This document shows positions 39,001-45,000 of a stretch of DNA of 64,000 bases, piece by piece. The DNA is from Octopus vulgaris (Eukaryota). The DNA lies in NCBI GenBank assembly GCA_951406725.2, contig OX597833.1:61752001-61816000 (forward strand), in the 5' to 3' direction. How positions within the stretch are numbered: position 1 is the stretch's first letter; every line of letters begins with the position of its first letter. Position numbers: made by a program.

Positions 39001-42000
39001 TACTCTCTTATCTGTTTCAGTCATTTGACTGCGGCCATGCTGGAGCACCGCCTTTTAGTCGAGCAAATCGACCCCAGGACTTATTCTTTGTAAGCCTAGT
39101 GCTTATTCTACCGCTATGTTACGTGGACATAAACACACCAGCACACGCACACACACATATATACATATATATATATATATATATATATATATATATATAT
39201 ATACGGGCTTCTTTCAGTTTCCGTCTACCAAATCCACTCACAAGGCTTTGGTCGGCCCGAGGCTATAGTAGAAGACACTTGCCCAAGGTGCCATGCAGTG
39301 GGACTGAACCCGGAACTGTGTGGTTCATAAGCAAGCTACTCACCACACATCATCATCATCTTCATCATCATCGTTTAACGTCCGCTTTCCATGCTAGCAT
39401 GGGTTGGACGATTTGACTGAGGACTGGGGAACCAGATGGCTGCACCAGGCTCCAATTTGATCTGGCAGAGTTTCTATGTATATTATATAAGGTAGTGATC
39501 TGAAAGAATCGTTAGCACACCTGGCAGAATATTTAGTGCCATTTCGTCTATCTTTAGGTTCTGAGTTCAAATTTCACCATTGTCGACTTGGTCTTTCATC
39601 CTTTCGAAGTCAATAAAATAAGTACCACTGGATTCGATGTAGTTGGCTCCCTGACACCCCCACAGAATTGTTAGCTTTATACCAAAATTTGAACACATGT
39701 ATGTATATATATATGTATGTATGTATGTATGTTTGTATATATTGTGTATGTGAAGGCACATGGCTCAGTGGTTAGAGCGTCGAGCTTACGATCATGAAGT
39801 TGTGAGCTCGAATCCCGGACCGAGCTGCGTGTTGTGTTCTTGACACTTTATTTCACGTTGCTCCAGTTCACTCTGCTGTAGAAATGAGTTGCGACGTCAC
39901 TGGTGCCAAGCTGTATTGGCCCCTTTGCCTTTCGCTTGGATAATATTGGTGGCGTGGAGAGGGGAGGCTGGTATGCATGGGTGACGAGCTGGCAGAAACG
40001 TTAGCGCGCCGTGTGAAATGCTTAGCGGTATTTTGTCTGCCGTTATGTTGTGAGTTCAAATTCCGCCAAGGTCGACTTTGCCTTTCATCCTTTCGGGGTC
40101 GATTAAATAAGTACCAGTTACGCACTGGGGTCGATATAATCGACTTAATCTGTCTGTCTGTCCTTGTTTGTCCCCTCTATGTTTAGCCCCTTGTGGGTAG
40201 TAAAGAAATAGGTATGCATGGGTGACTGCTGGTCTTCCATGAACACCCTTGCCCAGACTTGGGCCTTGGAGGGTAACTTTCCAGGTGCAAGCCCATGGTC
40301 AGTGTCTGACTAAAGGGGGTCTCATGTATTGTGTGTGTGTGTGTGTGTGTTTTTTATGTTGCACTCCTTCTTGGTTTGTAACATGGAAGCACTCCGTCGG
40401 TTCCGACGACGAGGGTTCCGGTTGATCCGATCAATGGAAGAGCCTGCTCGTGAAATTAACGTGTAAGTGGCTGAGCACTCCACAGACACGTGTACCCTTA
40501 ACGTAGTTCTCGGGGATATTCAGCGTGACACAGAGAGTGACAAGGCCGGCCCTTTGAAATACAGGTACAACAGAAACAGGAAGTAAGAGTGAGAGAAAGT
40601 TGTGGTGAAAGAGTACAGCAGGGATCACCACCATCCCCTACCAGAGCCTCGTGGAGATTTAAGTGTTTCCGCTCAATAAGCACTCACAACGCCCTGTCTG
40701 GGAATCGAAATCGCGATCCTATGACCGCGAGTCCGCTGCCCTAACCACTGGGCCATTGCGCCTCCACTTGGTTTGTAACATAGTAGTTCAAGAAACAGAG
40801 AGCAACAAAACAGTTAGCTGACTGAAATAAGAAACGAGGTCAACAGGACTGATTAAAACCCACAGAGGTATCATCCCGGCATCGCTGCCGTCTGACGACC
40901 CGAAATGAATGATGGGACAATAAAACTTAGTGTAATTACGATGGTTACAAAAGCAAAAGCAATTGGGTGCAGCAGCTTAATTATTTGTGATAATATTTTC
41001 TTAATTAATTAAGACTCATTATTGTTGCTGCTGTTGCTGCTGCTGCTGTTGCGGCAGTTGTTGTTGCTGTTGTTGTTGAGTCCCAAATCAGACCTGTCTG
41101 GGGCAGACCTAGGATCAAAGGAATCCCGGTTTTGATCATTATCCCATGCATTTTGATGGGGCAGGGGAAGGAAAGCGGTAGTACTACATATATGTGCATA
41201 TATATATATATATATATATATATATATATAACATAAGGGGCATCAGCCATCTGAATGTGGCTAGGGACAGGGCGGGGTGGTGGGGGTGTTACTGATGCAT
41301 TTAGCCCCAGGCGATCATCGACATCACCAGGAGGGCTGACACCATCTCGGTGTCCTCTAGCCTGCAAAGGGAGAGGCTAGAGGACACCGAGATGGTGTCA
41401 GCCCTCCTGGTGACGTCGATGATCGCCTGGGGCTAAATGCATCAGTAACACCCCCACCACCCCACCCTGTCCCTAGCCACATTCAGATGGCTGATGCCCC
41501 TTATGTTATAGAGCAGTTACTGTTTATATCTCGTTTAGAGATTTATTATATATATATATATATATATATATATATATATATATATATAAGTAGTTGAATG
41601 AATTATCCTAGTATAGATAATTCGGTTAACCGATACCTGGGTAGCAAATTCATGTCAGAAAAACACGGTTGAAGCTACATGCCAAGGGCAGAGATCACGT
41701 GCTTTCGTGTGGAAATTTGTGTGTTTTTTAATACAAATAAATGAAAGAATGGAGTTGAACAACGATTTAACAAAATTCCTTTTGTTATTTGTCGAGAATA
41801 ACATATGTCGAGAATAAAGGAATTTTGTTAAATTGTCGTTCAACTCCATTCTTTCATTTATTTATATATATATATATATATATATTTATTTATTATATAG
41901 AAGGAGCTTCTACAGGACTAGTACTGTTTCATTCAAGAGAAATCTTCTCTTGAATGAAACAGTACTAGTCCTGTAGAAGCTCCTTCTATATAATAAATTA

Positions 42001-45000
42001 ATTTTACTCTGCTATGTATTGAGTACCTTACTTACTGTGGTTAACCCCGAATCAACCCGGGACCTACATATATATATATATATATATATATATATATATA
42101 TATATATATATATATATATATATATGTATGTATATATGTGTATATATATATATATATATATATATATATATATATATATATATATATATATATATATATA
42201 TATATATATATATATTATTTAAATGTTACTTTTTAGGGAATAAAAATTCCGGCATAACAGAGGTTCAAATTATTCTCAATGAGGAAATATATTTTAATTT
42301 AGAGATAGTTGGCCCCTACATCTCCCCATATAAAAAGAATTTTTATTTTCATTTTAAATACCTACTGTTTTACTACTTGGCAACACGTGGTTCATGAGGC
42401 ACATTCTCTGGTTCCTAAACCACTCTGTGTTTTCCTGGAACCCTTCTTAAAATGTAATCCTAATCATCAGGCCCTTATATCACTTTATCAACGTTCAATA
42501 CAATAAACTATATTTAAATTTCTTAAAGCACTTAAGTATGTGAGACAAGTGTTGCCAAGTAATAAAACAGTAGGTATTTAAAATAAAAATAATAATTCTT
42601 TTCTTTTTATATGGTGAGATGTAGGGGCCCTACTATCTCTAAATTAAAATATATATGTGTATATATATATATATATATATATATATATATGTATGTATGT
42701 ATATGTGTATATATATATATGTATGTATGTATATGTGTATATATATATGTATGTATGTGTATATATATATATGTATGTATATATATATATATATATATAT
42801 ATATATATAGAAGAAATGAGGTAATCAGAAGATCGGATGGTTCATATTTATAGATATTTATTTATATATTACATTTTTTACATATATATATCATATCATT
42901 CAGATTATTAGCGCTTTCTCCCATTCTAGTGGGGTTTTCAAATCAAATTATATATATATATATATATATATATATATATATATATGTGCACATATGTTTA
43001 CACAACATTTGATCACTATAAACAAATCATCTGCGTGGTTGTTCGGTAAGAAATAGTCAAACCCTCATATGTCGTCTAATGACAGAAGAGTCCATTATGT
43101 GTATATATATATATATATATATATATATATAAATATATATAAGGAAAATAAGACAAGGTAGAAAATGGTGAAATAATTTTACCATGAAGAACATTTTAAT
43201 ACCGGTTTCAGTCTTTGCGACTCTTTCAACTTAGAGAAAAGGTTGAAAAACAATTCAATCATGGAAAAATTTAATGAAATGTTTTTTTTTAAATATTTCC
43301 ATAGTTTTCAAATATTTTACAAGAGTAAAAAAGAAAAACAGACAGAAAAAAGGAAAATGTCCCTTGTATTTGAAAACTATGGAAACATTTAAAAAAAACA
43401 TTTCAATTAATTTTCTCACAATTTAATTGTTTTTCATGCTTTACTCTAAGTTGAAAAATTCGCAAAGACTGAAAATGGTACTAAAATGTTCTTCATGATA
43501 AAATTATTTTAGCATTTTCTACCTTGTCATATTTTCCTTATACATATCAACTCGCGTGTTCCTTTTCAACCTTCTAAACACACACACACACACACACTTT
43601 TACACACATACATACATATATATATATATATCTTTATTGATATTTAGGGGAAGTGACAGAGTGACACAAGGTCTGAGAGTTTCGTGCGTTTGATAAGTGC
43701 CAACACACAAAACTTTTAGACCCTGAGTCACTCTGATACTTGTGCTAAATATTAATAGAAATTATGCATACATTTTAAGTTCTATTTTTTCTGTTTGCAT
43801 CAACATGACTGTACATATGTGTGTGTGTATGCATATATGTATATATGTGTATATATACATACATATACATACATATATATATGTGTGTGTGTGTGTTTGT
43901 ATATATATGTATATATATATATATATACATACACTTATACATATATACATATATATATATTTATGTATATATATATATATATATATATATATATATATAT
44001 ACACATACATACGTATATATATATATATGTATATATACATTTAAATCCTTATATCCTTAAAAATGTTTCAGCTCGAAGGCTGCGGCCATGCTATGGGTGA
44101 AAAATAGAATATTAATTTAATTAATATCAATTTAAAATCAGTGGTCTACCATATTTAAAAATCTGAAGTTTCAGAAAATATATGTACGTATGTATGTATG
44201 TATTAATGTATGTATGTATGTATGTATGTATGTATGTATGTATGTATGTATGTATGTATGTATGTATGTATGAATGTATGTATGTATGAATGTATGTATG
44301 TATGAATGTATCTATGTATGTGTGTGTGTATGTATGTATGTATGTATGTATGTATGTATGTATGTGTATGTATGTATGTATGTATGTATGTATGTATGTA
44401 TATGGATGTATGAATATATGAATATGTATACACACACATACATATGTATGTATGTGTATATATATATATATATATATATATATATATATATCATTCCGCA
44501 TTTAATGTCTATTGTCCATGTTGGTATGTGTGTGTGTGTGTGTGCGCGCGTGCATGTATATATATATAAATACATATTCTTTATCTTTTCCTTGTTTCAA
44601 TCGTTAGACAAACAAAAAAAAAAAAACGTCTCCGGTATTTACTTCTTTTCTCAACTTGGCACTCCTTTTATCGGTCCGTTTTGCCGGACTCCTAAGTTAC
44701 AGGGATGTAAACAAACCAACGCCTGTTGTCAAGTGACGGCGTTTAGAGGACAAACACACCCACCCACCTACAACACCCACCTACAACACCCACCTACAAC
44801 ACACACACAAATACGATCGGCTCTTCCTGTTAAACACAATACGTCGTTATGTAATTTCAGGGGAAATTTTTCCTGCCATTTCCAACGAACCCCAGCAAAC
44901 ATATTCAGGTTTCCCTCAAACCCGATTGCTGCTTCTATCTTTAAATGGTTTGTCACAGTCACATCACAAACACAGCCACTGTAATTTCCCAGAACTATGA

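What the first reader, a model, noticed from the sequence alone, without database searches (positions are those of the whole stretch)
41885..42068. Direct link: mini fold-back and full PLE share the same inversion boundary
The inverted arm of the mini (41885) and the inverted 5' copy of the long PLE (18303) both begin at the same pseudo-LTR position, just past the AATAAA after the hammerhead. Both omit the same about 70-nt tail. Only the fold point differs: inside the hammerhead core versus 2.3 kb upstream. This suggests a fixed priming site near the transcript 3' end and variable snap-back, which would explain all fold-backs in the window.
Basis: partly seen in the sequence, partly recalled or inferred. 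Interest (0 to 1): 0.7.

Follow-up and report, generated by a model that had tools for sequence, protein, structure and literature searches.

The report
Penelope-like retrotransposon stub with one-sided tail
The small fold-back is a dead-on-arrival, head-to-head insertion of the 3' end of a Penelope-like retrotransposon in a TA microsatellite, and the boundary it shares with the longer copy is the known 'tail' signature of this element class, so it is ordinary.

Summary
The antisense arm of the mini (outer end 41888) and the inverted arm of the long insertion (outer end 18305) stop at the same homologous base, right after ...AATAAAT. Both lack the 68-69 nt that follow it in the two sense copies (20870-20937, 41999-42067).

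The element is a 5'-truncated, frameshifted Hydra-clade Penelope-like element (PLE). It has a CxCX5C linker, a GIY-YIG nuclease, a hammerhead-like motif and (TA)n targets.

Two discrete 3' ends, a one-sided 'tail' and an adjacent inverted 5'-truncated copy are published PLE features (Craig 2021). The tail has been tied to two internal reverse-transcription start sites, with both target strands cut and extended (Frangieh 2024).

In three related families from other records plus the window's family, 10 of 10 tail-less ends stop at their family's own inner site.

Snap-back alone fails. The tail is on one arm only. The long insertion is a 143-nt inverted piece abutting a 2.49-kb copy, not a fold. 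One related mini has arms that share no element sequence.

The source genome could not be surveyed.

The parts
41863..41887 (.). Left target: (TA)n run (41863-41885) plus TTT (41885-41887; the two overlap at the last T) next to the antisense arm.
   Evidence: Sequence read; TA runs listed.
41888..41947 (-). Mini, tail-less antisense arm. Read on the minus strand it is the sense sequence from GAAGATTTC (hammerhead-like motif, helix II) to ...AATAAAT (inner site at 41888). It includes the 3-nt loop at 41942-41944.
   Evidence: On this strand the loop reads GAT, which matches the long copy at 20813-20815 (3 of 3 bases).
41945..41998 (+). Mini, sense arm: the 3' part of the hammerhead-like motif through ...AATAAAT (inner site at 41998). 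It overlaps the other arm by 3 nt (TTC/GAA).
   Evidence: 54 of 54 bases complementary to the left arm.
41999..42067 (+). Mini, 69-nt tail present on this arm only, ending ...GGGACCTAC (outer site). It holds the stem-loop motif ACTC-N11-GAGT at 42006-42024.
42068..42215 (.). Right target: long (AT)n/(TA)n microsatellite.
18305..18447 (-). Inverted, tail-less copy of the element's last ~143-151 nt (equivalent to 20718/20727-20869). Against the sense copy it shows 1 substitution, a 2-nt indel and an 8-nt deletion in the helix III loop. Its outer end at 18305 abuts TATAT.
18448..20869 (+). 5'-truncated Hydra-clade PLE body. The reverse transcriptase frame 18448-19554 aligns to homolog P0002 from residue 136. 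The linker plus GIY-YIG nuclease lies at 19538-20023 in another frame, so there is a frameshift near 19540 and a stop at 20038. The 3' UTR contains microsatellite expansions.
20802..20852 (+). Type I hammerhead-like motif: helix I AGCUUC/GAAGCU, core CUGAAGA, a weak helix II (3 bp plus a U-U pair), GAAA, helix III CAG/CUG. The predicted cut is after GUA (20846|20847).
   Evidence: Hit by my descriptor. Its format matches the published Hydra hammerhead listings. There is no Rfam hit. The fold z-score is 0.09.
20870..20937 (+). 68-nt tail of the long copy, ending ...GGGACCTAC, then (AT)n at 20938-20957.
36386..36533 (-). 3' end of a second, unrelated PLE: a cleaner hammerhead motif (36533-36474), AATAAAT at 36454-36448, then about 62 nt up to an (ATAC)n microsatellite. 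The layout is the same; no inverted arm was seen.

Best explanation
Both features are insertions of one family of Hydra-clade Penelope-like retrotransposons into (TA)n microsatellites.

The family has two discrete 3' termini:
- an inner one, ...AATAAAT, which is the unit boundary;
- an outer one 68-69 nt further on, ...GGGACCTAC.

The stretch between them is the 'tail'. In related full-length copies the tail is simply the first ~60-70 nt of the next unit's 5' UTR, and it carries a conserved stem-loop.

Each head-to-head insertion is best read as two target-primed cDNAs, one from each nicked target strand. One starts at the inner site and gives the tail-less arm. The other starts at the outer site and gives the tail-bearing arm. 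Their 3' ends are then joined by a short microhomology or by a local turn-around.
- In the mini both cDNAs are very short (60 nt, and 54 + 69 nt) and meet inside the hammerhead-like motif with a 3-nt overlap. The result is a near-perfect fold-back.
- In the long insertion the arms are 143 nt and 2.49 kb.

Shown here: the two fixed termini, the one-sided tail, the arm extents and the junction overlaps.

Inferred from the literature, not tested here: that the termini are reverse-transcription start sites, and that both target strands prime.
For: 1. Same inner end for both antisense arms, and same outer end for both sense arms, in the window.

2. PLE identity.
- The reverse transcriptase frame is 47% identical over 366 aa to ~700-aa proteins.
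- The consensus of 22 of these proteins carries RWK, ADKT and CNC-X5-C.
- The nuclease piece aligns at E = 9e-26 and has CNCSDKTTC.
- These are the Hydra-clade characters in PMC8557442 section 11. That section also reports (TA)n targets and canonical hammerheads.

3. Generality. The anchor search over 15 related loci plus the window found 17 ends in 4 families.
- 10 of 10 tail-less ends stop at the family's inner site.
- 5 of 7 tail-bearing ends reach a fixed outer end beside (TA)n, with tails of 61-69 nt.

4. Related copies show what the tail is.
- L008 is a full-length copy that starts at the inner site and ends at the outer site, a 64-nt terminal redundancy.
- In L006 the 3' copy stops at the inner site, while the upstream copy continues into the tail, the 5' UTR and the ATG.

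5. Two independent primings. The L012 7709-7810 mini has a 51-nt antisense arm (hammerhead cut site to inner site) joined to the distal 52 nt of the tail in sense. The two arms share no element coordinates.

6. Literature.
- In vitro, the PAc element cuts and extends both strands, and reverse transcription starts at two adjacent internal sites that bracket the tail (PMC11167929, main text).
Against: - Near-equal arm lengths are commoner than independent truncation predicts. Offsets were 3-7 nt in the window mini, fold-back D and the L005 F2 pair, and 60-66 nt in the L005 F1 pair. Some turn-around step must couple the two arms, and I could not show how.
- The spacer belongs to the tail-less arm in 3 of 4 testable pairs and to the tail-bearing arm in 1. 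No single order of events fits all four.
- The tail here is 68-69 nt, not the published 30-40 bp.
- The biochemical data come from a Poseidon-clade element, not a Hydra-clade one.
- Only two insertions of this family lie in the window, and the source genome could not be searched.
- The supporting families come from MAG-labelled records. Five of the loci (L005, L008, L011, L012, L013) come from one assembly.
- The hammerhead-like motif has no Rfam support.
Confidence: 0.7

Rival explanations
1. One reading: one cDNA is primed at a fixed site near the RNA 3' end, then snaps back on itself at a variable point and copies itself. This would make every fold-back.
For: - The mini is a 54-bp perfect palindrome with a 3-nt loop.
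- Several other minis are near-symmetric.
- In 3 of 4 testable pairs the loop or spacer continues one arm as templated sequence, followed by an exact turn-around. In the L005 F1 pair the turn sits at a 7-nt inverted repeat.
Against: - A self-copy cannot contain the 68-69-nt tail that its template arm lacks. In 3 of 4 pairs the arm that turned is the tail-less one.
- The long insertion's inverted arm is the 3'-terminal 143 nt, not an antisense copy of the reverse transcriptase region beside the junction.
- The two arms of the L012 7709-7810 mini share no sequence.
- L001 pairs a near-full copy with an inverted copy truncated by about 750 nt or more.
Confidence: 0.1
2. The shared boundary is not element-specified. 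Either it reflects annealing of the (TA)n target end to the most AT-rich patch of the RNA, or transcripts end just after the AATAAA signal.
For: - All four inner sites are AT-rich and end in T.
- 1-3 nt at each junction could belong to either the element or the (TA)n.
- AATAAA sits right at the boundary in the window family, and again in the second PLE at 36454-36448.
Against: - Families F1, F2 and F4 have equally sharp inner sites without AATAAA.
- A nearer TATA patch 8-12 nt upstream in the window family is never used (0 of 2 ends).
- The tail-bearing copies prove that the template RNA runs at least 68 nt past AATAAAT.
- Cleavage and polyadenylation usually falls 10-30 nt after AAUAAA (recalled), not on it. 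There is no A-tail.
- In PAc the start site is not homologous to the cut DNA (PMC11167929).
Confidence: 0.05
3. The two boundaries are the same by descent, not by two independent events. Either the mini arose from a long-type head-to-head insertion by internal deletion between the arms, or it is a copy of a fold-back non-autonomous element that transposes as a unit.
For: - Only one mini of this family is in the window, so copying as a unit cannot be excluded.
- Palindromes are prone to deletion and to homogenisation of their arms.
Against: - The mini matches the long copy at about 92.5% identity in BLAST and sits in a different (TA)n tract.
- The same inner-site rule holds for 8 tail-less ends at different loci in three other families.
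- Fold-back D has a longer single-arm relative (62125-62345) that reads straight through D's fold point. That fold was therefore made at or after insertion of a truncated copy.
Confidence: 0.1
4. The fold-back is a host DNA rearrangement at an unstable (TA)n tract, such as replication template switching or palindrome formation, and is unrelated to retrotransposition.
For: (TA)n tracts form cruciforms and are fragile (recalled). The window holds several fold-backs beside microsatellites.
Against: Host rearrangement would not place arm ends on the element's own two termini, in this family or in three others. It would not leave a one-sided tail of fixed length either.
Confidence: 0.03

Closest known systems
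Hydra clade of Penelope-like elements (Craig, Yushenova, Rodriguez, Arkhipova 2021, PMC8557442). The paper's supplement lists Hydra-1_Obim from Octopus bimaculoides (2507 bp, (TA)n).
   Same: - Homologs are short elements with a ~700-aa ORF.
- Reverse transcriptase followed by a C-terminal GIY-YIG nuclease.
- CxCX5C linker.
- No conserved Cys pair in the nuclease core.
- A hammerhead motif in the same ctgaagat...tgaa...ac format as several listed Hydra hammerheads.
- Insertion into (TA)n.
   Different: - The hammerhead sequence differs from the one listed for Hydra-1_oBim (compared by eye), so this is another family.
- The window copy lacks the N-terminal ~135 aa and is frameshifted.
- Helix II of its hammerhead is weak.
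[quoted passage not shown] 2024, PMC11167929).
   Same: - An inverted 5'-truncated copy lies at the 5' side.
- An extension is present at one end only.
- There are two discrete ends that bracket the extension.
- The extension contains a stem-loop.
- The targets are AT-rich.
   Different: - The tail is 61-69 nt in the Hydra-type families seen here, against the published 30-40 bp.
- The stem-loop is GCTCY...GAGCACT, not the AC-rich loop described for PAc.
- In PAc the sites lie inside the ORF start; here they lie in the 5' UTR, upstream of the ATG.
- No biochemistry exists for this clade in what I read.
Twin priming of LINE-1 (Ostertag and Kazazian 2001, recalled; also described in the abstract listing of PMC2837659).
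   Same: The second target strand primes a second cDNA, giving an inverted 5' segment joined to a sense 3' segment at a microhomology.
   Different: - In twin priming the inverted segment comes from RNA upstream of the sense segment. Here both arms contain the same 3'-terminal sequence and start at two fixed sites.
- There is no poly(A).
- No target-site duplication is readable in (TA)n.
Self-primed (snap-back) hairpin cDNA, and the inverted chimeras of strand-displacement synthesis (recalled).
   Same: The minis show a turn-around at a 3-7-nt inverted microhomology, with a 3-nt loop.
   Different: The one-sided tail, the grossly unequal arms and the non-overlapping arms cannot come from self-copying alone.

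Membership tests
Penelope-like element, Hydra clade | PLE-type reverse transcriptase with the clade's RWK motif and DKT in place of DKG | tested here: inconclusive
   The reverse transcriptase core is 47% identical over 366 aa to P0002. The consensus of 22 homologs shows RMRWK and ADKT. The window copy starts at homolog residue 136, so its own copies of these motifs are missing.
Penelope-like element, Hydra clade | C-terminal GIY-YIG nuclease lacking the CCHH motif | tested here: met
   The nuclease piece aligns to P0002 residues 498-646 at E = 9e-26. The family consensus has no Cys between VVY and YIG. The window copy has one non-conserved Cys there. Pfam's GIY-YIG model gave no hit. Atlas neighbours of P0002 carry GIY-YIG, HTH_animal, DUF8422 and RVT_1.
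Penelope-like element, Hydra clade | Linker motif CxCX5C in place of CX2-5CxxC | tested here: met
   CNCSDKTTC is present in the window translation. C564, C566 and C572 are invariant in alignment A1.
Penelope-like element, Hydra clade | Canonical hammerhead motif in the 3' region | tested here: inconclusive
   My descriptor finds all core bases and three helices at 20802-20852, but helix II is 3 bp plus a U-U pair. Rfam gives no hit even at E <= 10. Control: Rfam also calls none of 20 descriptor hits in 9 related loci at gathering score. A published-type Hydra hammerhead reaches only E = 1.
Penelope-like element, Hydra clade | Insertion into (TA)n; element shorter than 3 kb | tested here: met
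   Both insertions are bounded by TA runs. The truncated copy is 2.49 kb and homologs are ~700 aa. The unit length in related locus L006 is 2487 nt.
PLE tail / inverted-repeat insertion | Inverted 5'-truncated copy directly at the 5' side of the sense copy | tested here: met
   18305-18447 (minus) abuts 18448-20937 (plus). 41888-41947 (minus) abuts 41945-42067 (plus).
PLE tail / inverted-repeat insertion | Extension (tail) present at only one end of the insertion | tested here: met
   2 of 2 window insertions carry one tail. The same holds for the L005 F1 pair, the L005 F2 pair and the L012 mini. The large L005 F3 pair appears to have none.
PLE tail / inverted-repeat insertion | Tail length 30-40 bp | tested here: not met
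   The tail is 68 and 69 nt in the window, and 61-65 nt in families F1 and F2. Fold-back B of unknown family (41511-41548) has 38 nt.
PLE tail / inverted-repeat insertion | Tail equals the interval between two reverse-transcription start sites; both target strands are cut and extended | not testable with these tools
   This needs start-site mapping of the kind done in PMC11167929. Only the genomic footprints are seen here.
LINE-1-type twin priming | The inverted segment derives from RNA 5' of the sense segment | tested here: not met
   Both arms hold the same 3'-terminal sequence.
Snap-back (self-primed) cDNA | The second arm is a complement of the first along its whole length, with a small loop | tested here: not met
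   The loop is 3 nt and the arms are 54 of 54 in the mini. But the tail is on one arm only, and the long insertion's arms are 143 nt against 2.49 kb.

The most novel reading that the evidence does not exclude
The many tiny head-to-head stubs in (TA)n tracts may be a fossil record of how Hydra-clade PLEs integrate. There are at least six in this window, and more in the related loci.

On this reading:
- Two cDNAs are primed on opposite target strands at two sites that flank a conserved stem-loop (GCTCY, a variable covarying upper stem, then WWGAGCACT). This stem-loop acts as the entry point for the reverse transcriptase.
- The inner-site cDNA usually runs ahead and then turns round onto its partner at a 3-7-nt inverted microhomology.
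- At least sometimes the template is RNA already cut by the hammerhead. In the L012 mini, one arm ends exactly on the predicted cut site.

A genome-wide catalogue of such stubs would then give the in vivo order of events for a retroelement class whose integration is still poorly understood.
Probability: 0.35. Interest if true: 0.5.

Novelty: new member of a known kind. Interest (0 to 1): 0.3.

Why it matters
This explains away an apparently special link. The shared boundary is how PLEs end, so it needs no new mechanism.

Practical value:
- Annotators can recognise these (TA)n fold-backs as dead PLE stubs, not as hairpin genes, MITEs or assembly artefacts.
- The two fixed ends give a simple rule for delimiting Hydra-clade copies.

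Modest research value:
- The Hydra-type tail is about twice the published length.
- It carries a conserved stem-loop.
- The stubs constrain models of second-strand joining in PLE integration.

Tried and rejected
- **Rfam.** Scanning the whole window at gathering score gave 0 hits. Scanning 20650-20990 at E <= 10 gave 13 hits, none a hammerhead. The control showed that Rfam is insensitive to this hammerhead class, so the negative result carries little weight.
- **Pfam.** The three ORF pieces and four homologs gave no RT or GIY-YIG hit. Classification therefore rests on homologs and motifs.
- **More copies in the window.** A search with word size 7 found no further copies of the family or of its tail.
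- **Loop orientation as a test of which arm was made first.** The result was mixed: 3 of 4 pairs point to the tail-less arm and 1 of 4 to the tail-bearing arm. I do not use it as decisive.
- **Hammerhead candidate at 50801-50687 (minus).** Rejected, because its helix II would be 53 nt.
- **Hammerhead motifs in the other fold-backs.** The whole-window descriptor scan gave no hit in fold-backs A, B, C, D or the one at 15684. Their PLE origin is inferred from layout only.
- **Rejected readings.** AATAAA as a poly(A) signal defining the end, and host rearrangement; see the rival explanations.
- **Literature.** A search for 'penelope' + 'snap-back' + 'retrotransposon' found 0 papers. The 2026 retrozyme preprint had nothing on tails or fold-backs in the passages I saw.
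- **Not used.** Structure and complex prediction were judged irrelevant.

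
Full report
**What is at the coordinates**

The stretch 41888-42067 lies between two TA microsatellite runs, 41863-41885 and 42068-42215. It has two parts:
- a 54-bp perfect inverted repeat (54 of 54 bases) with a 3-nt loop at 41942-41944;
- a further 69 nt on the right side only.

It folds at -89.4 kcal/mol, z = -21.5.

BLAST of 20600-20940 against the window gave three non-self hits: the two mini arms (41939-42070 plus, 41947-41888 minus) and 18439-18305 (minus).

Alignment and a 22-nt anchor search show where the arms end:
- Both antisense arms stop at the same homologous base, the last T of ...AATAAAT, at 18305 and 41888.
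- Both sense copies continue for 68 nt (20870-20937) or 69 nt (41999-42067) to ...GGGACCTAC, followed by (AT)n.

A coincidence by chance would be roughly 1 in 143.

**What the element is**

The plus strand from 18448 to 19554 encodes a reverse transcriptase. It is 47% identical over 366 aa to a large set of ~700-aa proteins: 177 hits at E <= 1e-3 among 4637 candidates, best E = 2e-94. The match begins at homolog residue 136, so the copy is 5'-truncated.

A second frame, 19538-20023, aligns to the linker and GIY-YIG nuclease of the same proteins (E = 9e-26) and carries CNCSDKTTC. There is a frameshift near 19540 and a stop at 20038.

The consensus of 22 homologs shows RMRWK, ADKT and an invariant C-x-C-x5-C. 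Pfam itself gave nothing. Atlas neighbours carry HTH_animal, DUF8422, GIY-YIG and RVT_1.

These are the characters of the Hydra clade of Penelope-like elements as given in section 11 of Craig et al. 2021 (PMC8557442, read whole):
- short elements;
- a CxCX5C linker;
- no CCHH motif;
- RWK and DKT motifs;
- canonical hammerheads;
- insertion into (TA)n.

That paper's supplementary table lists a Hydra family from Octopus bimaculoides. Its hammerhead listing differs from the window's (compared by eye), so this is another family. I did not establish the source species.

**The hammerhead**

My structure descriptor finds a type I motif at 20802-20852 and its inverted copy at 18364-18322. All core bases are present and the predicted cut is at 20846|20847. 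Helix II is weak.

Rfam finds nothing. The control shows this says little:
- Rfam called none of the 20 descriptor hits in 9 related loci at gathering score.
- A published-type Hydra hammerhead reached only E = 1.

**The long insertion is not a fold-back**

Its inverted arm is only the last ~143 nt of the element. Against the sense copy it shows 1 substitution, a 2-nt indel and an 8-nt deletion. It abuts a sense copy that begins in the reverse transcriptase region at about 18440-18448. A snap-back at that point would have produced antisense reverse transcriptase sequence, which is not there.

**Is the fixed end general?**

The source genome could not be searched. I therefore fetched 15 loci encoding clade relatives from MAG-labelled records. 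These clearly hold eukaryotic PLE DNA. Many have hammerheads in both orientations inside (TA)n tracts.

A 22-nt anchor taken just upstream of each family's inner site found 17 ends in four families.

| Family | Ends found | Tail-less | Tail-bearing |
|---|---|---|---|
| W (window) | 4 | 2 | 2 |
| F1 | 4 | 3 | 1 |
| F2 | 6 | 3 | 3 |
| F4 | 3 | 2 | 1 |
| Total | 17 | 10 | 7 |

- All 10 tail-less ends switch to TA-rich sequence at the same base within their family.
- Of the 7 tail-bearing ends, 5 run 61-69 nt to a fixed outer end beside (TA)n.
- One tail-bearing end is cut by another element after 21 nt.
- One runs on into other sequence.

Only the window family has AATAAA at its inner site.

**What the tail is**

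- In L006 the 3' copy stops at the inner site, while the upstream pseudo-LTR copy reads on through the tail into the 5' UTR and the ATG.
- In L008 a full-length copy begins at the inner site and ends at the outer site, a 64-nt terminal redundancy.

The tail is therefore the start of the next unit.

It carries a conserved stem-loop: a GCTCY...GAGC base, a two-base bulge, and an upper stem whose sequence differs between families while staying paired. The motif occurs 25 times, against 5.7 expected (maximum 13 in 50 shuffles). All 21 instances examined fold as this hairpin. In the window family the outermost G-C pair is replaced by A-U, at 20876-20894.

Craig 2021's main text does not mention it: 0 occurrences of 'gagcac', 'stem-loop' or 'hairpin'. 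Frangieh 2024 describes initiation in an AC-rich stem-loop for a Poseidon element.

**Comparison with what is known**

Craig 2021 (passages) states three things:
- PLE insertions are highly 5'-truncated.
- They often have an inverted 5'-truncated copy at the 5' end.
- They often carry a 30-40-bp tail at only one end.

Frangieh et al. 2024 (PMC11167929; abstract and whole main text read) showed for the PAc element:
- the protein cuts and extends both target strands;
- reverse transcription starts at two adjacent internal sites, not homologous to the target;
- the tail is the interval between those sites.

The window's two insertions are instances of this signature in a Hydra-clade family, with a longer tail.

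**Mechanism**

The data fit two target-primed cDNAs, one from the inner site and one from the outer site, joined at their 3' ends.

The clearest case is the related mini at L012 7709-7810. A 51-nt antisense arm runs from the first base after the predicted hammerhead cut to the inner site. It is joined to the distal 52 nt of the tail in sense. The arms share no element coordinates, so no snap-back is possible.

Against a purely independent model, arms are often nearly equal in length:
- 3-7 nt offsets in the window mini, fold-back D and the L005 F2 pair;
- 60-66 nt in the L005 F1 pair, where the turn sits on a 7-nt inverted repeat.

Where a third copy shows which arm owns the spacer, it is the tail-less arm in 3 of 4 pairs and the tail-bearing arm in 1 of 4.

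I therefore infer a local turn-around of one cDNA onto its partner, which carries the tail, and not onto itself. This step is inference only.

**Other fold-backs in the window**

Five more share the layout of a microsatellite, two arms and a one-sided unique extension:
- 3316-3494;
- 41227-41548;
- 41589-41867;
- 56501-56806;
- 15684-15941.

The whole-window descriptor scan gave no hammerhead hit in any of them. Their PLE origin rests on architecture alone.

The following do not fit:
- the inverted SINE pairs (3539-4686, 48574-49612, 63388-63883);
- the fold-backs at 354-702, 1278-1641 and 50650-50985.

**Verdict**

Not checked:
- a genome-wide census;
- transcripts;
- the supplements of PMC11167929;
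- the closed metagenome and viral collections.

Noticed in passing
window 41198-42215: One TA microsatellite has been hit three times in a row. The three insertions are fold-back B (41227-41510, with a 38-nt one-sided extension to 41548), fold-back C (41731-41867, with a ~144-nt extension on its left at 41589-41732) and the mini. They are separated only by TA runs. Related locus L005 shows the same stacking of stubs.
   Followed up: partly
window 56501-56806 and 62125-62345: Fold-back D has 75-nt arms, a 3-nt loop and a ~154-nt extension on its left. It has a longer single-arm relative that reads straight through D's fold point. The loop, plus one more base, matches that relative as a continuation of the tail-less arm. 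The outer ends of the two copies roughly coincide, next to TA.
   Followed up: partly
window 3316-3494: A 79-bp near-perfect palindrome directly after (TA)n, followed by a 100-nt unique stretch and then (TA)n again. The layout matches the mini. There are no other copies in the window and no hammerhead hit.
   Followed up: partly
window 15684-15941: An older fold-back (arms about 75% alike) after (TA)n, with a ~63-nt right-hand extension that ends in TCACTATTTGGT before a microsatellite. The same 12 nt end the tail of family F1 in locus L005. This is a lead that the extension is a Hydra-type tail; it is not proof.
   Followed up: partly
window 36386-36533 (minus strand): 3' end of a second PLE family, with a cleaner hammerhead motif (helix III CCC-A-GGG), AATAAAT about 20 nt after the predicted cut, and then about 62 nt up to an (ATAC)n microsatellite. 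No inverted arm was found.
   Followed up: partly
window 20876-20894 and 42006-42024; loci L002-L013 (one search list): A conserved stem-loop lies in the tail and 5' UTR of Hydra-clade PLEs: GCTCY, a variable paired upper stem, then WWGAGCACT. It is often present twice just upstream of the ATG. There are 25 matches against 5.7 expected. The upper stems differ in sequence between families but stay paired. It was not found in the main text of Craig 2021.
   Followed up: partly
L012 7709-7810: A stub whose antisense arm starts exactly at the first base after the predicted hammerhead cut site, and whose sense part is only the distal half of the tail. It suggests run-off on hammerhead-cleaved RNA. 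This is a single case; chance is roughly 1 in 50.
   Followed up: partly
L008 2886-5449; L006 2490-5147: Full-length relatives. L008 starts at the inner site and ends at the outer site, a 64-nt terminal redundancy. L006 has two hammerheads 2487 nt apart, which gives the unit length, and a tail-less 3' end.
   Followed up: yes
loci L001-L015: Records labelled as bacterial MAGs or symbionts carry eukaryotic Penelope-like elements with (TA)n tracts. They are evidently host DNA binned with the bacteria. One protein hit is likewise named as a Gammaproteobacteria MAG protein (P0118).
   Followed up: no
window 3539-4686, 48574-49612, 63388-63883: Inverted pairs of a tRNA-like SINE that is very abundant in the window (dozens of copies). 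In 63388-63883 the 3' ends face each other at the centre, the opposite of the PLE head-to-head layout. The origin of these pairs was not examined.
   Followed up: no
window 354-702 and 50650-50985: Two older symmetric fold-backs (arms 79-83% alike) beside microsatellites, with no one-sided extension. They are unexplained.
   Followed up: no
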